Shown: positions 17,765 to 32,213, counted from the first letter of the stretch. The stretch is DNA of 64,000 nucleotides from an uncultured Gammaproteobacteria bacterium (GCA_913054335.1 CAJXHL010000001.1:22502-86501), one strand, 5' to 3'. Numbers and translations: made by a program. Notes: generated by a model from the sequence alone, not told the origin.

Positions 17765-18886
17765 CTAAGAGCGCAACCTGCGAATAAGAGCAAGTATTTG
17801 CAAGCGAGAAGCCAGAAGATAGTTGCTTGAGTCGTGATCAATGATTTTAAGGCTACGCGTGTTGCAGAAGTCGATAACAATTTCTTTGTCAATATTGCTA
17901 CAATCAAACGATTCGCCATTAATGTAACAATTAATGTCATCACCTGATAGTTGATAGGCGATACGGCAACATGGTTGCAGCTCGTAAGTCGCCTCAAGAT
18001 CAAGTGGCTTAAGCTCGTTGTAGGCGCTAATTTCATTCATGTTTTGCTCGTCCATTGGGTCAAGCTTTGTAACAAAGGCGCCAAAAAAATCATCAGGCAA
18101 TGCAATACCCTCTAGAAACGATTTGGCTTGACTAAAAGCCGCTTCAGGAATGAGGGCTGCTGAGTCCTCTTCTTGCCACTCAGGGTCTTGGTAATAAGTG
18201 ATTTTTTCAACTGTATCGCCAATATCCATCGCTAACAACATTTCTTGGTGTGAGTAAGAGCGATAACCGATGGACAGCGTCATACAATCATCATCCAAGC
18301 TAACGCCATGATGAGCAACTTTAGGTGGCACGTAAACCACATCCCCGGGTTCAGCATCCCAAACAACTTCTGGGTTAAACTCCTTCATGATTCTGAGGGG
18401 TACATTACTTAGATAGTTGTCAAGAGTGCAATTTTCGGTACTAATATGCCAGCGCCTCCTACCACCTCCTTGTAGTAAAAAAACATCGTAATAGTCAAAA
18501 TGAGGGCCGACACCTCCGCCTTTTGCTGCGTAAGAAATCATCACGTCATCAAAGCGCCAACGCGGAATAAAATCAAATTGATCGATGAGGTGATAAACCT
18601 CATCAACGTAGCGGTCTACTCCTTGAACAAGCAGTGTCCAATTATCGTCAGGTAATTCAGAAAACATTTCTTCTGGAAATGCACCATTTGTTAATTGCCA
18701 GTTATTGTCATCAGTTGAACCTATAATAATTCTTGATTCGAATTCAGCTTCACAGGCAAGGCCGGCCAACTCATCGGGTGAAAGTGGTGAAATGAAATCT
18801 GGTAACGCTTGTTTGATTAACAGGGGCTTTTTCTGCCAATAATCTCGCAGAAATTCTTGCTGTGATATTTTTCCAAAATGAATCAT
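17765..18886 (-). CDS. JmjC/cupin ribosomal oxygenase (RoxA/YcfD-like)
   Basis: FLRDYWQKKPLLI, PRWRFDDVMISYA..GGVGPHFDYYDVFLLQ, PPKVAHHG. Confidence 0.88.
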   Translation of the reverse strand: MIHFGKISQQEFLRDYWQKKPLLIKQALPDFISPLSPDELAGLACEAEFESRIIIGSTDDNNWQLTNGAFPEEMFSELPDDNWTLLVQGVDRYVDEVYHLIDQFDFIPRWRFDDVMISYAAKGGGVGPHFDYYDVFLLQGGGRRRWHISTENCTLDNYLSNVPLRIMKEFNPEVVWDAEPGDVVYVPPKVAHHGVSLDDDCMTLSIGYRSYSHQEMLLAMDIGDTVEKITYYQDPEWQEEDSAALIPEAAFSQAKSFLEGIALPDDFFGAFVTKLDPMDEQNMNEISAYNELKPLDLEATYELQPCCRIAYQLSGDDINCYINGESFDCSNIDKEIVIDFCNTRSLKIIDHDSSNYLLASRLQILALIRRLRS

Positions 18887-18986
18887 TACGTATTATTTCA
18901 AAAATTCAATGCTATTATTTTATTAAAATATAGCTAATCGCGATGCACTAAATGCATCGATTAAACGCTAATCAGGACAAGTAATT

Positions 18987-19772
18987 ATGAATAAAGTATT
19001 GATAACGATCATTGATTGCGAGAAATACCCTTTTAAAAGCAAGGATTTTCGAGTTCAATGCAAACAACAACTGGACGCTAATGGTTTATTAGTTTTGAGT
19101 GGGCTGCTTTTGCCAAGCGCAATACAAGCACTTATAGAAGAGGCAAACGCGAATGAGCATCTTGCTTATTATTGTGAAAATAACCACAATGTTTATTTGA
19201 GGCCACAAGACGAATCGTTGTCAGAAAACCACCCAAGAAATCAAATTGTTAGTTCTTCAAAGGGCTGTATTACAGATGATCAGGTGCCCAGTGAGTCACC
19301 CCTTAAGGCGTTATATAACGCTAAAGAATTTCAGGATTTTCTTTGTGCTGTATTAGGTGAGAGTGCCTTGTACAAATATGATGACAATCTCTCTTCTGTA
19401 AACGTTCATTACGCATGTGCAGGACAGGAGTTGGGCTGGCATTTTGACAATTCATCTTTCGCAATAACATTGTTAATTCAAAAGCCTAAAGGCGGCGGTT
19501 CTTTTGAATACATTCGTGACTTTAGGAATTCAGAAAATGATGAGATGAATTATGAGGGGGTTGGCGCGCTACTTGCTGGCGAGCACTCACCCGATGTTTT
19601 ATCGATTGAGCCGGGTGACCTTGTTTTGTTTCGTGGACGTAATTCGTTACACAGAGTAACACCCACGAAGGGTGATAGGGTTAGAATTTTATCCGTTTTG
19701 GCTTACAATACAGAGCCGGGTGTGCAGTTATCAGAATCAGCTCGAATGACGTTTTATGGCAGGTTAAACTGA
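18987..19772 (+). CDS. 2OG-Fe(II) oxygenase, HalD/BesD-like family with HxD triad
   Basis: ELGWHFDNSSF, GDLVLFRGRNSLHRVT. Confidence 0.75.
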   Translation: MNKVLITIIDCEKYPFKSKDFRVQCKQQLDANGLLVLSGLLLPSAIQALIEEANANEHLAYYCENNHNVYLRPQDESLSENHPRNQIVSSSKGCITDDQVPSESPLKALYNAKEFQDFLCAVLGESALYKYDDNLSSVNVHYACAGQELGWHFDNSSFAITLLIQKPKGGGSFEYIRDFRNSENDEMNYEGVGALLAGEHSPDVLSIEPGDLVLFRGRNSLHRVTPTKGDRVRILSVLAYNTEPGVQLSESARMTFYGRLN

Positions 19773-19866
19773 GCTTAAACTCATTAATTCTCTGTTTGAA
19801 CGGCTTGCACTCTTTTTTTTGGTGCAATGGTATGATTGTGCTCTTTAACGAACTTTGGAGGATGCA

Positions 19867-20262
19867 ATGAAAGGAAGCTGCTTGTGCGGTGGTGTTGTCT
19901 ACGAGATTGACCCGCCTTTTAAGATTTTTCAATATTGTCACTGCTCACGCTGCCGCAAATTTACAGGCAGTGCACACGCTGCCAATCTATTTGTGCCACC
20001 CAGTCAATTTCGTTGGCTTAAAGGTAAAGAGCAACTGGGGAGGTTTGAACATCCAGAGGCAAAATACTTTGCAACGGGTTTTTGCATAAATTGCGGATCA
20101 TCAATGCCTTGGGCGGTTAAAGGCGGTGTAAATATCGTTGTGCCTGCTGGAACACTGGACGAAGATCCAGAGATTAAACCACAACAAAGTATCTTTTGGG
20201 ATTCCCGTGCGTGCTGGTTTGAGGAAAATCAAGATTTAATAAAGTTCGAGGGAACTGGTTAA
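19867..20262 (+). CDS. GFA/CENP-V family Zn protein
   Basis: GSCLCGGV, CHCSRCRK, FC..CGS. Confidence 0.92.
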   Translation: MKGSCLCGGVVYEIDPPFKIFQYCHCSRCRKFTGSAHAANLFVPPSQFRWLKGKEQLGRFEHPEAKYFATGFCINCGSSMPWAVKGGVNIVVPAGTLDEDPEIKPQQSIFWDSRACWFEENQDLIKFEGTG

Positions 20263-20302
20263 AAGGGCAAAAAAAATAAGTAAGTAGGTGTAGAAAATAA
20301 CA

Positions 20303-21007
20303 ATGAAGATATCAGGTAAAAAAGCACTCGTTTTTGGCGGGACGTCTGGCATTGGCCTTGCCACTGCAAAACAACTTGCGGCGTTAGGAGCCAAAGTCGT
20401 TTCAATCAGTCGCCACCCACAAAAAGCTGGCGATAAGTTAAAGGGTATTTCGCTGCAAAAGTGTGATGTTCGTGATCGAGAGGCATTAGCAAAACTATTT
20501 CAAGGGCACGCACCTTTTGACATATTGGTGAGCACTGCACCCGGTGGAACAAGATCTCTTGGTCCTTTTCTAGAAATGGATATGGATGGTTATCAGACCT
20601 CTTTTGATAAATTATGGGGTTATGCGAATGTTGTGCGTTTTGGCGCGCAGTATATGAGCAAAGAGGGGGCTATCGTGCTCGTTAGCGGAGCGCCAGCACG
20701 AAGACCTAAAGCTGGGCAAGTGTCATTAGCCTCAGTTGGTGCGGCAGTTGAGACAATGGTTAGAACAGTTGCATCTGAATTAGCACCGCGGCGTATTAAT
20801 GTAGTCTCTCCTGGGATTATCGATACACCGATGGTTTCCATTGAAGGAAAAGAGCGAGAGACATTATTTAAAGAACGAACTAGCGACCACATAATCCCAC
20901 GTGCTGGAACTGCAGAAGAGGTGTCACAGGGTATTTTATTTGCAATTCAGAACGATTTTGTCACTGGCACAACCATTGATGTGGATGGCGGCTGGTTACT
21001 TTCTTAA
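20303..21007 (+). CDS. SDR family oxidoreductase (no obvious YxxxK)
   Basis: GGTSGIG Rossmann motif, RINVVSPGIIDTP, IDVDGG. Confidence 0.88.
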   Translation: MKISGKKALVFGGTSGIGLATAKQLAALGAKVVSISRHPQKAGDKLKGISLQKCDVRDREALAKLFQGHAPFDILVSTAPGGTRSLGPFLEMDMDGYQTSFDKLWGYANVVRFGAQYMSKEGAIVLVSGAPARRPKAGQVSLASVGAAVETMVRTVASELAPRRINVVSPGIIDTPMVSIEGKERETLFKERTSDHIIPRAGTAEEVSQGILFAIQNDFVTGTTIDVDGGWLLS

Positions 21008-21090
21008 AGAATGTTGACACAATCATCTTAATGTCCATTTTTGTTAACTAAAATAACAACCTTATTCACTGTGTAATCTTAAGAGTAATC

Positions 21091-21399
21091 ATGAAAAAAA
21101 CATTCAAATTAACACATCCAAAAATCAAACCCGCAAGGCTTGTTGAAGCGGTCAGACGTGATGTGAAAAAATACCTAAAAAGAGAGGGTAGAAAAGCCCT
21201 TCCTGAGGGTGTTGATTATTGGGACTTTGATTGCAAATACGGCCCAACTGAAGACAGGGCGGAAGTTATTCATACGGCCGAACTTAGTAAATGCATTGGT
21301 GAAGCTGAGGCGGAAGGCTTAGAATCGTTTTATTTGGAAATACTGGCCAAGCCGGGTTACAGAACCAAAAAACCTACGGAGCCTGACTTTGAAGAGTAA
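21091..21399 (+). CDS. DUF6172-like conserved small protein
   Basis: MKKTFKLTHPK.KP.RLVEA...VKKYLKRE..K.LPEGVDYWDFDC. Confidence 0.7.
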   Translation: MKKTFKLTHPKIKPARLVEAVRRDVKKYLKREGRKALPEGVDYWDFDCKYGPTEDRAEVIHTAELSKCIGEAEAEGLESFYLEILAKPGYRTKKPTEPDFEE

Positions 21400-21440
21400 T
21401 TCATAACTCTTTTAGCCATTACGCTTTCAATATTTAATAA

Positions 21441-22040
21441 ATGACAGGTTTTCTTTCTGGCTTCGTATTGGGATTAAGTTTGATTTTGGCAATTGGTGCG
21501 CAAAATGCCTTTATTCTTAAACAGGGCTTAAAACAACAACACGTCTTTATCTTGTGCTTAATTTGTGCAATTTCTGATGCTGTGCTCATTATTATTGGCG
21601 TATTTGGCTTTTCTCTTGCTATCAATATTTTGCCTGAAGTGGAATCTTTTGCTCGATATGCAGGTGCTATTTTCCTTTTAGTCTACGGTGCTCGAAGTTT
21701 TTACTTTGCTTTTAATAGCAATGATGCATTGAAAGAAAGTGAGGTATCTAAAACTTCACTTGCGCCAGCTGTATTGGCATGCCTCGCGTTTACATGGTTA
21801 AACCCTCATGTGTATTTAGACACGCTTTTTCTGCTCGGCTCTGTTTCTACTCAATACCTCGATGAGCAATATCAATTTGCATTGGGAGCGACGATTGCCT
21901 CATTTGTATTTTTCTTTTCTTTGGGATACGGGGCTCGCTTATTGGCGCCTATTTTTAACAAACCCATGGCTTGGAAAGTGCTAGAATTTGTTATTGGTTG
22001 CATCATGTGGCTCATTGCAATTAGCTTGGTTATTGTTTAG
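21441..22040 (+). CDS. LysE/ArgO-family amino acid exporter
   Basis: LILAIGAQNAFILKQG, TWLNPHVYLDT. Confidence 0.92.
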   Translation: MTGFLSGFVLGLSLILAIGAQNAFILKQGLKQQHVFILCLICAISDAVLIIIGVFGFSLAINILPEVESFARYAGAIFLLVYGARSFYFAFNSNDALKESEVSKTSLAPAVLACLAFTWLNPHVYLDTLFLLGSVSTQYLDEQYQFALGATIASFVFFFSLGYGARLLAPIFNKPMAWKVLEFVIGCIMWLIAISLVIV

Positions 22041-22042
22041 TT

Positions 22043-22392
22043 GAGGCCTTTACGTAAAGCATTTTATGTTTGATAGTGGGATTTTTTTTATTTTACAAGG
22101 CATATTTTTTTGAAGTTCTACTTGTTGTATAGCGATAAAATTTAACACAGGAAAATATAGTGCAAAGCCTGCCCTTGGGTGAAAAATTCCCTATCCCGAA
22201 GGGCTGAGGTTAACAATGTTAAAGCTAAGCCAAACAACGCCTTGGCGTTTGTTTGTGCGAAACTTATACTTTAGTGTAAAAAGTGCAGAATAATTCTCAT
22301 CAATAGCTAATGCTATTAATTTCAAATTTTTACACATTTTTTATTCATTACTACCACTCAGCAAACTTTAAAATGATTTATGTAAAGGCCTC
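22043..22392 (+). mobile_element. MITE-like repeat, copy 2 (long form, 350 bp)
   Basis: TIR GAGGCCTTTACGTAAAGCATTTTA / TAAAATGATTTATGTAAAGGCCTC; flanks TAGTT / TAGTA. Confidence 0.85.
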
Positions 22393-22404
22393 TAGTAATT
22401 ATTT

Positions 22405-23034
22405 ATGTCAGATTCAGAAAATACAAATCTACAAACCCACGAAGATGGTATCACTCGTTGTTATTGGGGAAAAGACGACTTAGATTATCGCAAATACCAT
22501 GATGAAGAATGGGGTAGACCGACCACCAATGATTTTCGACTCTTTGAAAAAATTTGCTTAGAAGGCTTTCAATCGGGACTTTCATGGCTAACCATCCTAC
22601 GAAAGCGCGAGAATTTTAGGAAGGCGTTTGCTGGGTTCGACTTTAATAAAGTCGCTCAATATAATGATGAGAATGTTGCTCAGCTTCTACAAAATAGCGG
22701 CATTATTCGTCACCGAGGAAAGATCGAGGCAACGATTAATAATGCGCATCGAGCCATAGAGATTGTTGATGAATTTGGAAGCCTCTGTACCTACATTTGG
22801 CAATGGGAACCAAAGTCAAAAGAACCACACATTGGCAAGGGGGATTACGATCATCCTATCCCTAGTATCACCAAAACATCCCAAGCGTTAAGCAAAGATT
22901 TAAAAAAACGCGGGTGGAAGTTTTTCGGCCCAACAACAGCCTACGCCTTTATGCAGGCAATGGGGCTGGTTAATGATCATGTAGAAGGTTGTGCTTTCAG
23001 AGGTGTTGCAATCAAATTAAGGAAGGAATTATAA
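22405..23034 (+). CDS. tag: DNA-3-methyladenine glycosylase I
   Basis: YHDEEWG, LFEKICLEGFQSGLSW, GLVNDH. Confidence 0.93.
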   Translation: MSDSENTNLQTHEDGITRCYWGKDDLDYRKYHDEEWGRPTTNDFRLFEKICLEGFQSGLSWLTILRKRENFRKAFAGFDFNKVAQYNDENVAQLLQNSGIIRHRGKIEATINNAHRAIEIVDEFGSLCTYIWQWEPKSKEPHIGKGDYDHPIPSITKTSQALSKDLKKRGWKFFGPTTAYAFMQAMGLVNDHVEGCAFRGVAIKLRKEL

Positions 23035-23080
23035 CTTCCATAATATGAAAACCCCACCCAAGAAAGCTAAAAAAACTAGC

Positions 23081-23110
23081 CTGTTCCCAATAAATCTGTC
23101 CCCAATAAAT
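23081..23110 (+). repeat. Tandem 15-bp repeat CTGT(T/C)CCCAATAAAT, with a third copy at 24821-24835
   Basis: ctgttcccaataaat-ctgtccccaataaat; ctgtacccaataaat at 24821. Confidence 0.7.
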
Positions 23111-23192
23111 TTCAGATTTGTGCCCACGTATTAGAACAAGAGACCCGCTTCACGATTTGAAAACTATTTGAACAATCTTTTAATTAAAACAC

Positions 23193-24068
23193 ATGAAAAA
23201 ACGCAGATTAGGCTCATCCGGAATTTCAGTCAACCCAATTGGCTTGGGGGCGATGCCGCTGTCCACTGTTAATCGACCGACTAGTCAACAAGCGATACAT
23301 CTAATTTGTGAGGCATTGGACGCAGGTATTGATTTTATTGATACAGCGGATGTTTATTGTCTGGACGATAATGATATTGGCCACAATGAACGTTTGATTG
23401 CCAAAGCGTTCAAAGCTTGGCAGGGTAGTACACCTGTTACTGTTGCGACAAAAGGCGGTTTAGTGCGACCCAACGGCGATTGGGTTGATAATGGCCACCC
23501 TGATCACCTCAAGGCTGCCTGTGAGGCAAGCTTAATTGCACTTGATACAGAAACCATTGATTTGTATCACTTTCATGAACCCGATAAAAAAGTGCCTTTT
23601 GAAGAAAGTATGGGCGCTTTGATTGACCTTAAGAATGCTGGAAAGATTCGTAATCTTGGCCTTTCAAATGCCACTCTTGAGCAGATTATCCAAGCCCGTA
23701 AAATGGTTGATATTGTTAGTGTCCAAGATCGCTGTAGCCCCTTTGACCTTGATTATTTTCGCAATGGTATTATTGATTACTGCGAACAACAAAACATCGC
23801 TTTTTTGGCTTACAGTCCCGTTGGTGGTGGCAATGGTAAAGTTCGCACTGAGAATAGTCATCCACTGAACAAAGTAGCACAGGCCTTTGACGCAACACCT
23901 TATCAAATTGCACTGGCATGGTTGCTTGGGAAGTCGCCAGTGATGATTCCAATTCCTGGGGCCAGCCGCGTCGAAAATGCTATCAGCAGTGCCGATGCTA
24001 TGTCTATTAAATTATCAGATGACGATATGCTTTATCTTAATCAAGCCTTTGGCGTTGCGAAAACCTAA
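23193..24068 (+). CDS. Aldo/keto reductase
   Basis: IGLGAM, FIDTADVY, IDLYHFH, LAYSPVGG, IPIPG. Confidence 0.93.
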   Translation: MKKRRLGSSGISVNPIGLGAMPLSTVNRPTSQQAIHLICEALDAGIDFIDTADVYCLDDNDIGHNERLIAKAFKAWQGSTPVTVATKGGLVRPNGDWVDNGHPDHLKAACEASLIALDTETIDLYHFHEPDKKVPFEESMGALIDLKNAGKIRNLGLSNATLEQIIQARKMVDIVSVQDRCSPFDLDYFRNGIIDYCEQQNIAFLAYSPVGGGNGKVRTENSHPLNKVAQAFDATPYQIALAWLLGKSPVMIPIPGASRVENAISSADAMSIKLSDDDMLYLNQAFGVAKT

Positions 24069-24182
24069 ATAGAATCTATGAATAAAAAACTAACCCGTTC
24101 TCAATAATGCTCTAATTTTCTATTTTTTTTATGCTGTATCTTTAGTGCGCAGTCCAACCTTATCTTTATAACCCAATAAATC

Positions 24183-24761
24183 ATGAATAACGAAGCTGTA
24201 GTTGACTTTTTAAAAGAAATAGAAAAATTTAAAACTTGTGAAAGAACGTGCCGTACAACAGACACAACTCGAGCTGAGAGCGATGCTGAGCACTCGTGGC
24301 ATTTGGCTACTTTCCTTTTATTACTAGAGGATGAATTGCCTGAAGCTGACTTTACTAAAGTGCTTAAACTTGCTTTGATCCATGACTTGCCAGAGATATA
24401 TGCAGGTGATACCAATCCCTATAGAGGTGATTTAACAAACAAAGAAGCAAACGAAAAAGCAGCAGCAGATAAATTGTTCAACATGTTGCCGAGCACTCCT
24501 AAGCTTAAATTTAAACAGCTATTTGAAGAGTATCTAAATCAAACGACCATTGAGGCGCGTTTAGTCAAATCGGCGGATAAATTGATGCCTTTGATTCAAA
24601 ACCTTTGCACCAATAATGAGTATTCTTCCTATAGAAAGTTGGAAGTGGATTACCAAGAAGCGAAAGAATACTTAGATAAATACTTTCAAACAGGCGGTGT
24701 ATTAAAACAAATGTACGAGAATCTTTTGCAAGAAGCCAAAGCCAAAGGAGTTTTTTATTAA
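24183..24761 (+). CDS. HD-domain hydrolase (YfbR/HD_3-like)
   Basis: ESDAEHSWHL, ALIHDLPEIYAGD, ADKL. Confidence 0.9.
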   Translation: MNNEAVVDFLKEIEKFKTCERTCRTTDTTRAESDAEHSWHLATFLLLLEDELPEADFTKVLKLALIHDLPEIYAGDTNPYRGDLTNKEANEKAAADKLFNMLPSTPKLKFKQLFEEYLNQTTIEARLVKSADKLMPLIQNLCTNNEYSSYRKLEVDYQEAKEYLDKYFQTGGVLKQMYENLLQEAKAKGVFY

Positions 24762-24856
24762 ATGCTTTTTAAATGCAGTCGGTAAATTGTGTACTTAGAG
24801 TGAGGCATAACAAAACTAATCTGTACCCAATAAATTTATAAGTCAAGGAGAATGAA

Positions 24857-25258
24857 GTGAAAATAACTGGCGAGTGTTTTTGTGGAGAAGTGAAATACCA
24901 AATTGATGGCAGACTTTGTGATGCAAGATCTTGCCACTGTTCCCGTTGCCGTAAAGCATTCAGCGCACAAGCATCCGCTTACGCATTGGTTGATCCATCA
25001 AAGTTTAAGTGGTTATCTGGTAAGGATATACTCACATCCTATATTGGAAGCCATGGCTTCGGATTGCAGTTCTGTAGTCAATGCGGTTCTACTCTTTGTG
25101 GTATTCTTAATGGTGTTGTTCATGGCGTCACATTGGGTTGCGTAAACGGTGATCCAGAAATTGAGATTGGCAAACACATTTATGTTGGCTCTAAAGCACA
25201 GTGGGAAATAATCCCTGAGGGTGTTCCGCAATTCAACGAAGGTGCGCCGGAAAATTAA
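24857..25258 (+). CDS. GFA/CENP-V family Zn protein
   Basis: GECFCGEV, CHCSRCRK, FCSQCGS. Confidence 0.92.
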   Translation: MKITGECFCGEVKYQIDGRLCDARSCHCSRCRKAFSAQASAYALVDPSKFKWLSGKDILTSYIGSHGFGLQFCSQCGSTLCGILNGVVHGVTLGCVNGDPEIEIGKHIYVGSKAQWEIIPEGVPQFNEGAPEN

Positions 25259-25294
25259 AGGGGGTCGTTGTCTTTCATCATAGGAGAAACCGAG

Positions 25295-25696
25295 ATGACA
25301 ATTAAAGGCGGATGCTTATGCGGCAAGGTTCGTTACGAAATCACTGGGCCACTCTTTAGTGCAGATCACTGCCATTGCTCTATGTGTAGACGTCAGCATG
25401 GCGCAGCATTTTCTACTTATGCAAAATTTAATCCAGGTGATTTTAAATGGATTTCAGGGGAAGACTTTGTAAAAGTATTCGATCCGTCGTCAGCTGGTGG
25501 ATGGTGCTTTTGTAGTGAGTGTGGTTCGACATTAGCAGGAACCGATAAAGGTGATACTACCACTGTAACGCTCGGCACGGTTGAGGGTGATCCAGGCATA
25601 AAGCCAGAGTCGCATATCTTCGTAGGCTCCAAAGCCCAGTGGCATGATATATGTGATAATCTTCCACAATTCGAAAAACGATCTCCAAATACCTGA
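25295..25696 (+). CDS. GFA/CENP-V family Zn protein (ATG at 25295; TTG at 25268 in ORF track)
   Basis: GGCLCGKV, CHCSMCRR, FCSECGS. Confidence 0.92.
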   Translation: MTIKGGCLCGKVRYEITGPLFSADHCHCSMCRRQHGAAFSTYAKFNPGDFKWISGEDFVKVFDPSSAGGWCFCSECGSTLAGTDKGDTTTVTLGTVEGDPGIKPESHIFVGSKAQWHDICDNLPQFEKRSPNT

Positions 25697-25755
25697 GAGC
25701 CACTGTATTTAAAAAAACGTTAACCATTTATAAAAATAATAATTAAGGAAATAAA

Positions 25756-26199
25756 ATGAAATTTAATATATACCTTTCAGGCGAGATTCACTCAGACTGG
25801 AGAGAGCAAATTATCGAAGGGTGCTCTCAAGAAAATCTTGAAATCTCTTTCTCTTCGCCGGTTACAAATCATGAGGCTAGTGATGCGGCAGGCGATTGTC
25901 TTGGCTTAGAGAGTGATTCTTTTTGGCGTGACCATAAGTCCGCCAAAGTAAATGCCATTCGTACCAAAACACAAATCGAAAAATGCGACTTAGCAATCAT
26001 TCGTTTTGGTGAAAAGTACAAACAATGGAATGCCGCTTTTGACGCAGGTTATTGCGCTGCGCTCGGCAAGCCATACATCACATTGCATGACAAATCACTT
26101 GTTCATCCATTGAAAGAAGTCAATTCTCAGGCTCAAGCTTGGGCGCAAACCCCAGAACAAATAATAGAAATTCTAAAGTACTTACTCTGCCAAAAGTAA
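25756..26199 (+). CDS. YtoQ-family protein
   Basis: YLSGEIHSDWRE, WRDHKSAK.N.IR, RFGEKYKQWNAAFDAG, HPLKEV. Confidence 0.88.
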   Translation: MKFNIYLSGEIHSDWREQIIEGCSQENLEISFSSPVTNHEASDAAGDCLGLESDSFWRDHKSAKVNAIRTKTQIEKCDLAIIRFGEKYKQWNAAFDAGYCAALGKPYITLHDKSLVHPLKEVNSQAQAWAQTPEQIIEILKYLLCQK

Positions 26200-26201
26200 A
26201 A

Positions 26202-26270
26202 GCCTAACAAACGGCTGGCAAGGGTCTTTAAAGCCGTACACTTTTCTCATGAGTTATACAGGTGTTATAA
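26202..26270 (+). mobile_element. Degenerate attC-like site after ytoQ
   Basis: GCCTAAC-AAACGGCT inverse-core-like start 3 bp after the stop, ACGGCT/AGCCGT stem, GTTATAC and GTTATAA core-like ends. Confidence 0.4.
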
Positions 26271-26277
26271 AAAATTA

Positions 26278-26486
26278 ATGAAGCAATCAATAATTGGTTA
26301 CCATAAGGATGAAGAAAATGATTGGGTAGCTGAATTATTTTTGGTCATTTTCAGCATGTTAGGCATAATCCACCCTTCACCAATCGTCCATGGGTGGTAG
26401 TAGAATCGGGTCGTGATTTAATGTTAGGTTCTGAGCTAAATTGTCAAAAATGTGATTTGGGTGATCCAAAAGACATATTGAGATAG
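26278..26486 (+). pseudogene. DUF3565-family protein with a 1-bp deletion frameshift
   Basis: MKQSIIGYHKDEENDWVAELF then shifted frame GHFQHVRHNPPFTNRPWV...ELNCQKCD; a base is missing in the T run near 26338-26342. Not in the ORF track. Confidence 0.75.
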
Positions 26487-26604
26487 AGCCACATCTGGTT
26501 GTTAAGATTCACAATAATAATGGTAACACTTACTAATTATTATAACAATGACAAAATTAAGGTAATTAAGTACATGTCCACAACTCCCTTCCCCAACTTC
26601 CTAT

Positions 26605-27075
26605 ATGAAGAGTAATATTGTTATCAAGCCATTGATTGATCACCAAGAAGCCATCCCTGAACTTGTGGATTGGTTCGTTACGCAGTGGCCAGAATACTAT
26701 GGTGTGGATGGCAAGGGAAATGCCCAAAAAGACGTTGAAAATTATGCAAATAATGGCACTATTCCGCTTGGCTTGGTTGCGTATAAAGGTAATCAATTGT
26801 GCGGTTTTATGGCGCTTAAAGCTGAGTCATTTGCCTCGCTGACCTATAGCGAACCGTGGGTAGGTGCTGGCTTTGTTTTGCCTGAAATGCGTGCTCAGGG
26901 TATAGGCACTAGGTTGTTATCTGCAATCGAAAACAAAGCTGCGAGTATGGGATATTCTCAGCTTTATTCTGGCACAGCCAAGTCTCATGGCTTGCTGCAA
27001 CGAGCTGGTTGGACTAGAGAAAATGAAGTCTTTCAAGATGGAAAAAAAGTAACTATTTATACAAAAAAACTCTAG
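26605..27075 (+). CDS. GNAT N-acetyltransferase
   Basis: PWVGAGFVLPEMRAQGIGTRLL. Confidence 0.85.
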   Translation: MKSNIVIKPLIDHQEAIPELVDWFVTQWPEYYGVDGKGNAQKDVENYANNGTIPLGLVAYKGNQLCGFMALKAESFASLTYSEPWVGAGFVLPEMRAQGIGTRLLSAIENKAASMGYSQLYSGTAKSHGLLQRAGWTRENEVFQDGKKVTIYTKKL

Positions 27076-27154
27076 CACACAAATCATGTCAGAGTTTAAC
27101 CAGAAATACTTACCTATAAGGAATAATGGTGGCATGTGCCTTTTTATAAAAATG

Positions 27155-27240
27155 GCATAATTAAGGCAATTAAGTGCGTGTCTTCCAACTTTTTATTTTT
27201 CTGCTACGCTCCAAAATGCAGGTAAATTCAAACGTTAGCA
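27155..27240 (+). mobile_element. Degenerate attC-like site ending in the core GTTAGCA
   Basis: GCATAAT...AATTAAGTGC left arm; CTACGCT loop; GCAGGTAAATTCAAAC-GTTAGCA right end. Confidence 0.5.
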
Positions 27241-27255
27241 TGATGGACCAAAGTT

Positions 27256-28254
27256 ATGAATTATGAAAAGATACCACGGCAATCTCTAGGTTTTTTTCCA
27301 ACACCGATAGTCGAACTTTCCAAGTTAAGTGAAGCGCTTGGCGGCTCTAAAATATTTATGAAGCGAGATGACAATACGGGTCTTGCATTGGGTGGCAACA
27401 AAACCAGAAAACTCGAGTTTATTCTTGGAGATGCGCTGGCGTGTGGTGCAGATACTATTATTACCGCCGGTGCAGCGCAATCAAACCATTGTCGGCAGAC
27501 CGCTGCCGCAGCTGCTAGCCTGCAACTTGAATGCCATCTTGTTTTAGGCGGAGAAAAACCTGACATTGTTAACGGCAATCTCTTACTTGATCAAATATTT
27601 GGCTGCCATATCCATTGGGCTGGTGTAAATCGTAAGGGAGAAGATATTCCTCAAATTGTTGAACAACTGAAACAAGCAGGGAAAAAACCCTATGTTGTGC
27701 CTTATGGCGGTTCAAATGAGCTCGGCGCCTTAGCATTTGTAGAGGCACTAAAAGAGCTTGAAACACAACGTCAAGACACTGGTAAATCGTTCACATACAT
27801 CGTTTTTGCATCAAGCTCCGGAGGTACACAAGCTGGGTTGATGCTTGGGAAAAAGATGCTTGATGCGTCATATCAAATAGTCGGAATAAATATTGATAAA
27901 GGAGAAACAGATAAGGTTCCTTTTGATCAATTCATATTGTCTCTTGCTAACAGTACGGCAAAATTCATTGGTGTAAATCACGACTTTTCAGAAGAAGATT
28001 TAATTCTGAACTCTGACTATGTTGGTGAAGGTTATGGCGTGATTGGTCACCTAGAGAACGAAGCAATTTCATTGACAGCACAAACCGAAGGTATATTGTT
28101 GGACCCTGTCTATACCGGAAGAGCCATGGGCGGGTTATTTGATATGATCAGAACCGGAAAAATCAATAAAAAAGATAGCGTTTTATTCTGGCATACCGGA
28201 GGCGTGCCCGCTTTATTTGCTTATTCAAATAGATTAAATTTCTCAAAATGCTAA
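27256..28254 (+). CDS. D-cysteine desulfhydrase / cysteate sulfo-lyase family PLP enzyme
   Basis: KRDD.TGLALGGNKTRKLEF, AQSNHCRQ, SSGGTQAG, LDPVYTG, HTGG. Confidence 0.88.
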   Translation: MNYEKIPRQSLGFFPTPIVELSKLSEALGGSKIFMKRDDNTGLALGGNKTRKLEFILGDALACGADTIITAGAAQSNHCRQTAAAAASLQLECHLVLGGEKPDIVNGNLLLDQIFGCHIHWAGVNRKGEDIPQIVEQLKQAGKKPYVVPYGGSNELGALAFVEALKELETQRQDTGKSFTYIVFASSSGGTQAGLMLGKKMLDASYQIVGINIDKGETDKVPFDQFILSLANSTAKFIGVNHDFSEEDLILNSDYVGEGYGVIGHLENEAISLTAQTEGILLDPVYTGRAMGGLFDMIRTGKINKKDSVLFWHTGGVPALFAYSNRLNFSKC

Positions 28255-28296
28255 TAAAGTATTGCAACGGACAAGTCACTGAATGCGGTGTTATAT
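28249..28296 (+). mobile_element. Shortened attC-like site overlapping the stop codon of the desulfhydrase gene
   Basis: TGCTAAT-AAAGT-ATT[G]CAACGGAC...CACTGAAT-GCGGT-GTTATAT; ATT[G]CA pairs with TGAAT leaving the canonical extrahelical G. Confidence 0.6.
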
Positions 28297-28631
28297 TTCC
28301 GAAAAGGTATAGGCAAAAGGATACGTCAGCCTTTTGTTTTTTACTCTGTCAAAATAAAGTCCTAACAAAAATTTAGGAAATTTTGAAAATGAAGCCCTGC
28401 AAGGAGTAGAATGAATCAAAAAGAACTGTTTTAAATGCTATATAAAGGCTATTTTTAGGTTTTAAGTACTTTTATGGGATTTTATGAACATTTTCCAGAT
28501 GAAGGAAAAATGATAATTAAATGACCCAAAAAAAGGGCGGCACACTTACTTATGTAAGTGTAAAATATTCTTTTCTTTGAATTCTCATCTCGCAAACTGT
28601 TTGTGACATCTTTGATGTCAGTTTCAGATGA

Positions 28632-29309
28632 TTGCAATTCAAGCTTCAGGTGATTATTATTCCAGACAAAGTTGAACCTCAAGAGTTACAGCCTACTATT
28701 CTTTCCTTTCTAAAGGATCTTCCTAACATATGCTCGCTTGCAGGTCTGGCTTGCACGATATTGGCCATATATTTCAGTATATTGGGTGTTTACTACGCTG
28801 CAATGATTGGCATGGTTTGGGCTGTTGCATTTGACTGGGCGGATGGGCTTATTGCACGTAGAATTAAAGGGCGAACAGGTAAACAGAGTTTTTTTGGAGG
28901 GCAGCTTGATTCGTTAATAGATATTGTGAACTATGGCGTTTCTCCTGCTATTCTTCTTTTGAGTTATGCTGAATTCGATCCTATATTCCTATTAGGATCA
29001 TTTATAGTTATTTCTGCTAGTGCCATTCGATTGAGTTATTTTAATACCTATGGACTTTCTAATGGGGCCAGATACACAGGAATGGCTCTTGATAACAATA
29101 ATCTAATACTTGTTTTCATATTTCTATTTGAAAGCATGTTTAGTGAAGGCCAATTTTCGGTTATTCTTTATATCAGTTGTATAGGGATTGCAATCCTAAA
29201 TGTTTCACAAATAAAAACACCAAAACTTTCTGGAAGCACATTTAATGTTTGTGTTCTTGCTGTTTATACTCTTGTAATAACAGCGATCTACAGCTGGAAA
29301 CTTTTATAG
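28632..29309 (+). CDS. CDP-alcohol phosphatidyltransferase family protein (start uncertain)
   Basis: D.ADG.IARR...G..LDSL.D signature. Confidence 0.85.
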   Translation: MQFKLQVIIIPDKVEPQELQPTILSFLKDLPNICSLAGLACTILAIYFSILGVYYAAMIGMVWAVAFDWADGLIARRIKGRTGKQSFFGGQLDSLIDIVNYGVSPAILLLSYAEFDPIFLLGSFIVISASAIRLSYFNTYGLSNGARYTGMALDNNNLILVFIFLFESMFSEGQFSVILYISCIGIAILNVSQIKTPKLSGSTFNVCVLAVYTLVITAIYSWKLL

Positions 29310-29360
29310 AAAGTAACGCTCTGGTAAAGGAAAAAATTATTTTGATAAGGAGTTAATACA

Positions 29361-29861
29361 ATGGTTGTATATACGGTAGGTACTTTTGATTTATTGCATG
29401 TTGGACATCTTGCGTTGTTGGAATTCTGTGCCACTCTGGGCGATACAGTTGCTGTTGGGGTTGCCTCTGATGAAGTAGTTAAATTATACAAACCTAATGT
29501 GCCCACTATTCCGCTTGATGAGCGTATAGAAATGCTTCAAGCGCTTAGCTGCGTGGATATTGTTCTGCCATACCATCAGCTGGATTACATTTCTGTATGT
29601 AAAAAGGTTAAAGCCGATATTTTTGTTATTGGTGAAGATTGGGGTAGGAAGCCTCATAATCAAGGCGTAGAAAATTATCTTAAAGGACAAGGCAAAAAAA
29701 TCGTTCAAATTAAATATAATCCACGAACTTCGTCCACTAAAATAAAACAAAATATCATAGCTCAATTTCAAAGAAATAAAGACATAGAGCAAGAAATTGT
29801 ACAAAATATTTGGTATGACGTGGTTAAGAAAAAGCACAACAAGGCAAGTACAAATGGATAA
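29361..29861 (+). CDS. Cytidylyltransferase (TagD/RfaE-like HxGH nucleotidyltransferase)
   Basis: YTVGTFDLLHVGHL, ER.EML.AL.CVD.V, GEDW, TSST.IK. Confidence 0.88.
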   Translation: MVVYTVGTFDLLHVGHLALLEFCATLGDTVAVGVASDEVVKLYKPNVPTIPLDERIEMLQALSCVDIVLPYHQLDYISVCKKVKADIFVIGEDWGRKPHNQGVENYLKGQGKKIVQIKYNPRTSSTKIKQNIIAQFQRNKDIEQEIVQNIWYDVVKKKHNKASTNG

Positions 29862-29909
29862 ACTCAAGCCGATTCCACTACGTTACGCAACTTAAATTTC
29901 CTAGTGACT

Positions 29910-29949
29910 GGTAACTTGGTGTTTATTTATCAATAAATACCAAGTTACC
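29910..29949. terminator. 18-bp-arm palindrome between convergent genes (terminator-like or recombination-site-like)
   Basis: GGTAACTTGGTGTTTATT-TATC-AATAAATACCAAGTTACC, one G-T pair. Confidence 0.5.
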
Positions 29950-30088
29950 TCTTGTTGGGTAATAAATTAACGCAATATAGAAGAGTAAGTCGAGGCGTAA
30001 GAAAATTGAAGGACGTGAGCTTATATTTAATAAGCGATCAATCTGAAATTTTTGACAACAAAGACATACAGAAAATTAAACTCTATAT

Positions 30089-32213
<2,125 letters not shown>

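What the first reader, a model, noticed from the sequence alone, without database searches (positions are those of the whole stretch)
27234..28296. D-cysteine desulfhydrase-family gene with matching cassette boundaries
Seen: GTTAGCA 22 bp before the ATG, and its near-complement TGCTAAT (expected TGCTAAC) overlapping the stop codon. This is followed by a 5-bp spacer, an L box with extrahelical G, and GTT. This is the geometry of an integrated cassette, though the 48-bp site is shorter than known functional attC sites. Inference: a sulfur-releasing PLP enzyme (DcyD or CuyA-like; YTG/HTGG residues argue against ACC deaminase) acquired as a cassette, which is relevant if the host oxidises sulfur.
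Basis: partly seen in the sequence, partly recalled or inferred. Interest (0 to 1): 0.65.

Follow-up and report, generated by a model that had tools for sequence, protein, structure and literature searches.

The report
Ordinary desulfhydrase-family gene, no integron cassette
The gene is a real PLP enzyme of the D-cysteine desulfhydrase/cysteate-lyase family that a marine Thioglobus (SUP05-clade) bacterium gained by horizontal transfer into a variable chromosome region, but the proposed integron-cassette boundaries around it are chance sequence matches.

Summary
They do not form an attC site.

- The 48-bp stretch does not fold. Its bottom strand gives -2.3 kcal/mol, z +0.37. A real aadA1 attC gives -18.8 kcal/mol.
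- Neither GTTAGCA nor GTTATAT fits GTTRRRY, and core motifs occur at the chance rate.
- 3 of 60 genes in the window pass the same GTT-restricted boundary test.
- No integrase, recombinase or transposase was found in the 64 kb.

The comparison with relatives settles it. A sister lineage (94% identical protein) is homologous without a break from the GNAT gene through position 27234 to 21 bp past the stop. It reads GTTTGCA and TTCTAAC at the two motifs.

A second Thioglobus relative lacks the gene. Against it, the insertion is a 2.1-kb three-gene block: a DUF3565 pseudogene, GNAT and this gene, 26212-28340. A ~30-nt direct repeat of the ytoQ 3' end flanks the block. It lies in a hypervariable tract between guaB and a JmjC gene.

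The family assignment holds. TIGR01275 is passed, YTG/HTGG match Salmonella DcyD, and the ACC deaminase and CuyA models are not passed. The gene clade is spread across phyla. Low interest.

The parts
27256..28254 (+). 332-aa PLP-dependent enzyme of the D-cysteine desulfhydrase / CuyA family
   Evidence: Pfam PALP 3e-42. TIGR01275 292.5 bits against cutoff 289.4. CuyA NF052482 360 bits, below 450. Closest solved structures are 7YSK and 4D8T, both D-cysteine desulfhydrases.
27234..27240 (+). GTTAGCA, claimed as R' of an upstream attC; a chance motif
   Evidence: It does not fit GTTRRRY and occurs 4 times against 4.4 expected. The sister lineage L060 reads GTTTGCA here, inside unbroken 93% homology.
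28249..28296 (+). Claimed 48-bp attC (TGCTAAT ... GTTATAT); not an attC
   Evidence: Bottom strand -2.2 to -2.3 kcal/mol, z about 0. R box pairs at 3 of 7 positions. L060 reads TTCTAAC, and its homology ends at 28275, inside the supposed site.
28312..28342 (+). Intrinsic-terminator-like hairpin (GGCAAAAGG / CCTTTTGTT) followed by a T run
   Evidence: RNA fold -12.6 kcal/mol, z -2.0; sequence.
26212..28340 (+). Lineage-specific three-gene block (DUF3565 pseudogene, GNAT, this gene) absent from the Thioglobus relative L064/L065
   Evidence: blastn of the window against L065 gives homology at 24174-26211 and again at 28351-28503, with nothing between.
26182..26211 (+). Left copy of the ~30-nt direct repeat: the last codons of ytoQ, its stop and 12 nt
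   Evidence: TTACTCTGCCAAAAGTAAAAGCCTAACAAA matches 28341-28369 at 26 of 30 columns.
28341..28369 (+). Right copy of the direct repeat, a remnant of the ytoQ 3' end
   Evidence: Alignment A6. The sequence from here to 28503 matches the spacer that follows ytoQ in L065 at 75% (blastn hit 28351-28503).
26278..26486 (+). Frameshifted DUF3565 gene; its conserved HVRH codons supply the GTTAGGC at 26358
   Evidence: Translation. Pfam DUF3565 3.7e-28 on the joined frames. The gene is intact in L060, L054 and L055.
26605..27075 (+). GNAT acetyltransferase, collinear with this gene in the sister lineage L060
   Evidence: Pfam. A single 1674-bp block at 92.4% identity spans 26602-28275.
28504..29991 (+). 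Second lineage-specific block: CDP-alcohol phosphatidyltransferase plus cytidylyltransferase
   Evidence: Absent from L065. Pfam.
18987..29861 (+). Variable tract of small same-strand genes between the JmjC gene (17765-18886, minus strand) and guaB (30089-31561, minus strand)
   Evidence: Its content differs between Thioglobus lineages at 93% and 81% ValRS identity. It is constant in the window's own population.

Best explanation
The gene at 27256-28254 encodes a fold-type II PLP enzyme of the D-cysteine desulfhydrase / D-cysteate sulfo-lyase family. By inference it carries out a beta-elimination on a D-cysteine-like or cysteate-like substrate and gives pyruvate, ammonia and sulfide or sulfite. 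It ends in its own intrinsic-terminator-like hairpin. It is an accessory gene of one lineage of Candidatus Thioglobus (SUP05 clade). It belongs to a 2.1-kb block (DUF3565, GNAT, this gene) inserted directly after ytoQ, in a hypervariable tract between guaB and a JmjC gene. The gene clade has moved horizontally between orders and phyla of marine bacteria. It is not an integron cassette: the GTTAGCA/TGCTAAT pair is a chance match and no attC site exists. How the block entered is only inferred. The ~30-nt direct repeat of the ytoQ end on both sides suggests single-crossover (Campbell-type) or short-homology recombination. It does not point to IntI-mediated attC recombination.
For: Family:
- PALP, and TIGR01275 above its cutoff.
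- GGNK lysine motif, YTG and HTGG aligned to Salmonella DcyD.

No attC:
- Folds at the level of shuffles.
- My hairpin scan recovers the aadA1 attC of plasmid R100 at -18.8 kcal/mol with 6 of 7 R-box pairs.
- The same scan finds 21 weak candidates in 18900-30100, against 10-26 in shuffles.
- It finds no candidate beside the gene in 48 related loci, and no excess over shuffles in L061; L060 is within its shuffle range.
- Spacer folds are unremarkable apart from a MITE and terminators.

No recombinase: all 70 Pfam-scanned ORFs of 100 aa or more across the 64 kb lack an integrase, recombinase or transposase domain.

Comparative evidence:
- L060 is collinear over 26602-28275 at 92.4%.
- L064/L065 lack the block, and the ancestral spacer resumes at 28351.
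- L066/L067 have different tract content.

Population: the identical protein sits in the same context on 20 metagenome contigs. Contigs from four runs cover it at 17-142x with no joint that skips it.

Horizontal transfer: the window and L060 nest with Arenicella, a Cellvibrionaceae MAG and an unnamed gammaproteobacterium (support 95/96). The wider clade includes Bacteroidota and Thermodesulfobacteriota. No neighbours are shared with those loci.
Against: - The tract looks like a cassette array: about 16 small same-strand genes of unrelated function, with gene-hugging indels between lineages.
- The direct repeat flanking the block contains GCCTAAC / TCCTAAC, which resembles an integron R'' core.
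- The closest non-Thioglobus homologue (L001/L061) also carries GTTAGC about 25 nt upstream of its start, and it too sits in an array of small same-strand genes.
- My attC scan is a home-made hairpin filter with a single positive control, not the IntegronFinder covariance model.
- The substrate of the enzyme is untested.
Confidence: 0.85

Rival explanations
1. Decayed integron cassette (CALIN remnant). The tract was once an integron array. The gene entered as a cassette by IntI-mediated attC recombination. Later the integrase was lost and the attC sites eroded beyond recognition.
For: - A same-strand run of small unrelated genes from families common in cassette arrays: GFA three times, GNAT, DUF3565, YtoQ.
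- Indel boundaries between lineages hug the ORFs.
- GCCTAAC at 26202 and TCCTAAC at 28360 fall within the repeats that flank the block.
- The homologue in L061 sits in a long array of small same-strand genes.
Against: - No attC-like hairpin in any spacer of the tract, nor in L060 or L061; counts equal those in shuffles.
- The only perfect GCCTAAC...GTTAGGC pair (26202/26358) has its right arm inside the HVRH codons of a DUF3565 pseudogene.
- No intI or intI pseudogene among the ORFs of the window.
- CALIN requires at least two attC sites (PMC4889954), and none is found.
- The specific boundaries proposed, 27234 and 28296, are contradicted by L060.
Confidence: 0.07
2. The block was added by an unrecognised site-specific or short-homology mechanism that inserts gene-sized modules flanked by short direct repeats, a cassette-like system that does not use attC.
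For: - A ~30-nt direct repeat flanks the three-gene block, 26 of 30 columns identical.
- A 42-nt repeat (83%) brackets the GNAT gene.
- A 21-nt motif occurs three times in successive spacers around the AKR and HD genes, against 0.05 expected.
- Contigs of co-occurring lineages break exactly at the ytoQ stop (26198), and one breaks at 27250.
Against: - The three repeat families are unrelated to each other in sequence.
- The AKR and GNAT repeats do not sit at the breakpoints seen against L065 and L060.
- No recombinase is encoded nearby.
- Ordinary illegitimate or homology-facilitated recombination followed by drift can leave such scars.
- No excision joint appears in four metagenomes (contigs only, so rare forms would be missed).
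Confidence: 0.06

Closest known systems
D-cysteine desulfhydrase DcyD (Salmonella StDCyD, PDB 4D8T; PMC3344862) and the TIGR01275 family
   Same: Fold-type II PLP enzyme aligned over its full length (E 7.5e-66). It has the GGNK lysine motif, DPVYTG and HTGG, and it passes the TIGR01275 cutoff.
   Different: It scores far below the enterobacterial DcyD equivalog models (267 bits against 429). It belongs to a separate clade from marine cold-water bacteria. No activity data exist.
D-cysteate sulfo-lyase CuyA (NF052482; PMC11193023)
   Same: This is the best-scoring NCBIfam model (360 bits, full length). Some metagenome annotations of close relatives read 'L-cysteate sulfo-lyase'.
   Different: The score is below the 450-bit equivalog cutoff. 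No cysteate racemase (CuyB) or sulfite exporter lies nearby in the window or in 48 related loci.
ACC deaminase AcdS (Pseudomonas, PDB 1RQX/1TZM)
   Same: Same superfamily and length; E 2.5e-62.
   Different: The window protein has Thr and Thr where ACC deaminase has the key Glu and Leu (YEG/HLGG in 1RQX; key residues listed in PMC4048297). TIGR01274 scores 238 bits against a cutoff of 392.
Integron gene cassette with attC, and CALIN (PMC4889954)
   Same: One promoter-less-looking ORF in a same-strand run of small unrelated genes, with short GTT.../...AAY strings near its ends.
   Different: No R/L-box hairpin, no extrahelical-base geometry, a length of 48 bp, no IntI, no second attC, and boundaries contradicted by a collinear sister lineage.
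Hypervariable (flexible) genomic islands between conserved core genes in marine bacteria
   Same: Fixed core flanks (guaB-ValRS on one side, JmjC-PNPase on the other). Gene content differs between lineages but is stable within a population.
   Different: This comparison rests on my general knowledge. No paper on such islands in Thioglobus was consulted.

Membership tests
Integron gene cassette (attC-bounded) | R'' (RYYYAAC) and R' (GTTRRRY) core sites that are complementary to each other | tested here: not met
   TGCTAAT and GTTATAT pair at 3 Watson-Crick positions plus 1 G-T out of 7. Neither fits the consensus, and the upstream GTTAGCA does not fit GTTRRRY either.
Integron gene cassette (attC-bounded) | Bottom strand folds into an imperfect hairpin with R box, L box and extrahelical bases | tested here: not met
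   -2.3 kcal/mol, z +0.37, and -2.2 kcal/mol, z -0.2. The positive control, aadA1 attC, gives -18.8 kcal/mol.
Integron gene cassette (attC-bounded) | Integron integrase nearby, or at least two attC sites (CALIN; PMC4889954) | tested here: not met
   No integrase, recombinase or transposase domain in the 70 Pfam-scanned ORFs of 100 aa or more in the 64-kb window. attC-like candidates in the tract equal the shuffle level.
Integron gene cassette (attC-bounded) | The unit is present or absent as a whole at the attC crossover points in related genomes | tested here: not met
   L060 homology runs unbroken over 26602-28275, across 27234. Against L065 the indel spans 26212-28350 and holds three genes. 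One diverged contig breaks at 27250.
TIGR01275 D-cysteine desulfhydrase family (PLP fold type II) | Whole-protein HMM score at or above the curated cutoff | tested here: met
   292.5 bits against 289.4. Pfam PALP 145 bits against 35.
TIGR01275 D-cysteine desulfhydrase family (PLP fold type II) | PLP-lysine motif, and Thr/Thr (YTG, HTGG) in place of the Glu/Leu of ACC deaminase | tested here: met
   GGNKTRKLEF, DPVYTGRAM and WHTGGVPAL align to StDCyD GGNKLRKLEF, DPVYTGKAM and IHTGGAPAL.
CuyA D-cysteate sulfo-lyase (NF052482 equivalog) | Score at or above the 450-bit equivalog cutoff | tested here: not met
   360.1 bits.
CuyA D-cysteate sulfo-lyase (NF052482 equivalog) | Pathway context: cysteate racemase CuyB and sulfite export (PMC11193023) | tested here: not met
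   None among the annotated neighbours in the window or in the related loci.
ACC deaminase (TIGR01274) | Cutoff of 392 bits, and the key Glu296 and Leu322 (PMC4048297) | tested here: not met
   237.7 bits. Thr and Thr stand at those positions.
Any member of this superfamily | Catalytic activity and substrate | not testable with these tools
   This needs an enzyme assay.

The most novel reading that the evidence does not exclude
The Thioglobus guaB-JmjC tract grows and shrinks by gene-sized modules inserted at ORF ends and flanked by short direct repeats. The example here is the ~30-nt ytoQ-end repeat around the DUF3565-GNAT-desulfhydrase block. This would be a cassette-like exchange mechanism that uses neither attC sites nor an integron integrase.
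Probability: 0.06. Interest if true: 0.55.

Novelty: new member of a known kind. Interest (0 to 1): 0.14.

Why it matters
As it stands, it matters little. This is one more uncharacterised member of the DcyD/CuyA family, carried in a flexible region of a SUP05-clade genome, and the integron reading should be dropped.

Two modest points remain. First, this protein clade is shared at 65-87% identity among marine Gammaproteobacteria, Bacteroidota and Thermodesulfobacteriota. That implies frequent transfer and probably a useful organosulfur or D-amino-acid function, which could be assayed. Second, the guaB-JmjC tract is a clean natural example of gene-by-gene turnover in an abundant, mostly uncultured ocean bacterium.

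Tried and rejected
1. An attC at 28249-28296: rejected by folding and by the core-site rules.
2. An attC ending at GTTAGCA (27183-27240, TTCCAAC...GTTAGCA): 5 of 7 R-box pairs and -5.4 kcal/mol, no better than shuffles.
3. The perfect inverted pair GCCTAAC (26202) / GTTAGGC (26358), 163 bp, z -2.7: rejected because GTTAGGC encodes the conserved HVRH of a frameshifted DUF3565 gene, and because the fold is two local hairpins rather than one R/L stem.
4. A hairpin beginning at TCCTAAC (28360-28460): z about 0.
5. Repeat families in the tract that might be attC-like: none are palindromic.
6. Arrival of the block together with a foreign ytoQ (homology-facilitated illegitimate recombination): not supported, because ytoQ is as similar to L065 (87% nt) as its neighbours are.
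7. Close relatives on plasmids: only distant Phaeobacter dcyD hits.
8. Rfam on 26000-30200: only a spurious miRNA hit on a hairpin.
10. Accession BR000038 (R388) as a positive control was not in the collection. R100 was used instead.

Full report
**Observation**

The quoted strings exist. GTTAGCA lies at 27234-27240, 22 nt before the ATG at 27256. TGCTAAT lies at 28249-28255 over the TAA stop. GTT lies at 28290. The ORF 27256-28254 (+, 332 aa) is the only long frame there.

**The boundaries are chance matches**

- GTTAGCA and GTTATAT do not fit GTTRRRY, and TGCTAAT lacks the C of RYYYAAC.
- The putative R box pairs at 3 Watson-Crick positions plus one G-T, out of 7.
- In the 64-kb window GTTRRRY occurs 84 times (83 expected) and GTTAGCA 4 times (4.4 expected).
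- As an empirical null I tested all 60 long genes of the window. 37 have some 7-mer within 45 nt upstream whose near-complement lies at their stop. 3 do so with a GTT-starting 7-mer, including a phosphoglucomutase and a FtsW/RodA-family gene.

**No attC fold**

- The bottom strand of 28245-28300 folds at -2.3 kcal/mol, z +0.37; 120 of 200 shuffles fold as well.
- For 28249-28296 the value is -2.2 kcal/mol, z -0.2.
- I wrote a scan for xxxxAAC...GTTxxxx pairs 45-200 nt apart whose bottom-strand minimum-energy fold closes the R box.
- As a positive control the scan recovers the 60-bp aadA1 attC of plasmid R100 at -18.8 kcal/mol, -0.31 kcal/mol per nt, with 6 of 7 R-box pairs.
- In the tract 18900-30100 the scan gives 21 weak candidates, the best at -0.147 per nt. 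Ten shuffles gave 10-26 candidates, with best values from -0.109 to -0.168.
- No candidate lies beside the gene in any of 48 related loci. L061 shows no excess over shuffles. L060, with 12 candidates against 4-12, is within its shuffle range.
- Folding each spacer shows structure only at a MITE, at terminators and in the long spacer after this gene, which folds as several small hairpins and not as one R/L stem.
- The one perfect core pair, GCCTAAC at 26202 and GTTAGGC at 26358, is explained away. GTTAGGC encodes the conserved HVRH of a frameshifted DUF3565 gene at 26278-26486.

**No recombinase**

Pfam scans of 70 ORFs of 100 aa or more across the window found no integrase, recombinase or transposase. 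The flanks are core genes: PNPase and a JmjC gene on the left, guaB, ValRS and the glyoxylate-shunt genes on the right.

**Host**

The closest named ValRS relatives (92% and 81% identity) are Candidatus Thioglobus MAGs.

**Comparative test**

- The identical protein occurs on 20 metagenome contigs, always in the same gene order.
- Contigs from four marine metagenomes cover 25700-28800 at about 17-142x with a handful of SNPs and no joint that skips the gene.
- The sister lineage L060 (protein 94% identical) has the order ytoQ - [FMN_bind_2] - DUF3565 - GNAT - this gene - [two small ORFs] - CDP-alcohol transferase.
- Nucleotide homology with the window is a single block, 26602-28275, at 92.4%. 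It runs through the GNAT gene, the whole 180-bp spacer, position 27234 and the gene, and ends 21 bp after the stop.
- In L060 the two motifs read GTTTGCA and TTCTAAC. No cassette junction therefore exists at 27234.
- The homology ends at 28275, in the middle of the supposed attC.
- The Thioglobus relative L064/L065 (ValRS 93%) has guaB | ytoQ, GFA, GFA, HD, Tag, LysE, DUF6172, SDR, GFA, HalD | JmjC. It lacks this gene, GNAT, DUF3565, the two lipid-head-group genes, the AKR gene and the MITE.
- Against L065 the window aligns at 24174-26211 and then at 28351-28503.
- The unit that differs is therefore a three-gene block of about 2.1 kb, 26212-28340.
- The block is flanked by an imperfect direct repeat: TTACTCTGCCAAAAGTAAAAGCCTAACAAA at 26182-26211 and TTACTCTGTCAAAA-TAAAGTCCTAACAAA at 28341-28369, with 26 of 30 columns identical.
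- This repeat is the 3' end of ytoQ plus 12 nt. The ancestral spacer downstream of ytoQ continues after the right copy.
- ytoQ is no more diverged from L065 than its neighbours are, so the block did not arrive together with a foreign ytoQ.
- A more distant Thioglobus (ValRS 81%) has entirely different genes between guaB and JmjC.
- The tract is therefore a hypervariable region with fixed core flanks.

**Points that lean towards a cassette-like history**

- The tract is a same-strand run of small unrelated genes.
- Indel boundaries hug the ORFs. Contigs of co-occurring lineages break at the ytoQ stop, and one breaks at 27250.
- The closest non-Thioglobus homologue (L001/L061, 86-87% identical) also sits in a long run of small same-strand genes. 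It carries GTTAGC about 25 nt upstream of the shared ATG, where it overlaps an alternative start codon, ATGTTAGCG.
- None of these arrays shows attC-like hairpins.
- At 82-84% nucleotide identity within the coding sequence, neutral flanks are expected to be unalignable in any case.

**The gene itself**

- Pfam PALP.
- NCBIfam TIGR01275, the D-cysteine desulfhydrase family, scores 292.5 bits against a cutoff of 289.4.
- The best model is CuyA at 360 bits, below its 450 cutoff. XcbE scores 293, the DcyD equivalogs at most 267, and ACC deaminase 238; all are below their cutoffs.
- The closest solved structures are D-cysteine desulfhydrases, 7YSK and Salmonella 4D8T.
- DPVYTGRAM and WHTGGVPAL align with StDCyD DPVYTGKAM and IHTGGAPAL. 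Pseudomonas ACC deaminase has DPVYEGKSM and AHLGGVPAL.
- PMC4048297 lists Glu296 and Leu322 among the residues required for ACC deaminase.
- CuyA acts on D-cysteate together with a racemase, CuyB (PMC11193023). No racemase or sulfite exporter lies nearby.
- A terminator-like hairpin followed by a T run lies at 28312-28342 (-12.6 kcal/mol, z -2.0).

**Phylogeny**

- Homologues at 65-87% identity occur in Arenicella, Cellvibrionaceae, Psychrobacter, Colwellia, Glaciecola and Paraglaciecola, Polaribacter and Geobacteraceae.
- In the tree, the window and L060 nest with Arenicella, a Cellvibrionaceae MAG and an unnamed gammaproteobacterium (support 95/96).
- Neighbours are not shared with the window.
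- Within Psychrobacter and Paraglaciecola the gene sits in several stable contexts that do not look like cassettes, for example next to modAB or an NhaC-type transporter.
- No close relative is plasmid-borne.

**Verdict**

This is an ordinary, horizontally acquired accessory gene of a known enzyme family, in a flexible chromosomal tract of Thioglobus. The integron-cassette geometry is not real. How the block was inserted is inferred only from the flanking direct repeat.

Noticed in passing
window 26278-26486: A DUF3565 gene is inactivated by a 1-nt deletion (TTTTGTGG to TTTTTGG, near 26335). It is intact in the sister lineage L060 and in two contigs of the same population (L054, L055). Its HVRH codons create a GTTAGGC that mimics an integron core site.
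   Followed up: yes
window 26537-26578 and 27141-27182: A 42-nt direct repeat (83% identical) lies upstream of the GNAT gene and upstream of the desulfhydrase gene. L060 has only the second copy. The first copy lies in a 128-bp insertion (26474-26601) between DUF3565 and GNAT. It may be a duplicated promoter or operator.
   Followed up: partly
window 23073-23093, 24087-24107, 24813-24833: A 21-nt motif, AAACTARYCYGTWCYCAATAA, occurs three times in successive spacers after the Tag, AKR and HD genes (0.05 expected by chance). It is present in the window's own population and absent from the relative L065, which also lacks the AKR gene.
   Followed up: partly
window 28408-28585: A region of about 180 nt with imperfect terminal inverted repeats (AGAATGAATCAAAAAGAA / TTCTTTTCTTTGAATTCT) and inner hairpins lies in the long spacer before the CDP-alcohol transferase gene. 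It may be a small MITE-like element or a regulatory structure.
   Followed up: no
window 29862-30088; loci L050-L057: The spacer between the cytidylyltransferase gene and guaB varies in length between population contigs (188-383 bp). In L057 it holds two extra genes, a GNAT and a 111-aa ORF. It contains an 18-bp near-perfect hairpin at 29910-29949.
   Followed up: no
L061 1-13846 (JGI metagenome contig, same organism as the Cellvibrionaceae MAG of L001): A run of more than 20 small same-strand genes of unrelated families (DM13, GFA, CHMI, DUF3465, the desulfhydrase homologue, LEA_2, DUF2784, DUF3297, metallo-beta-lactamase fold, thioredoxin and others). It looks like an integron array, but my scan found no attC-like hairpins.
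   Followed up: partly
window 25697-26200 against L060 79-578: There is mosaic divergence between the window and L060. The last 75 nt of the GFA gene are 100% identical, ytoQ is 87% identical, and GNAT, the desulfhydrase gene and the CDP-alcohol transferase are 93% identical. This suggests recombination within the tract.
   Followed up: no
window 27250, run X19: A contig of a diverged (90-95% identical) copy of the gene in one metagenome has a different 5' flank. The break lies 6 nt before the ATG, so a third context for the gene exists in a lineage close to Thioglobus.
   Followed up: no
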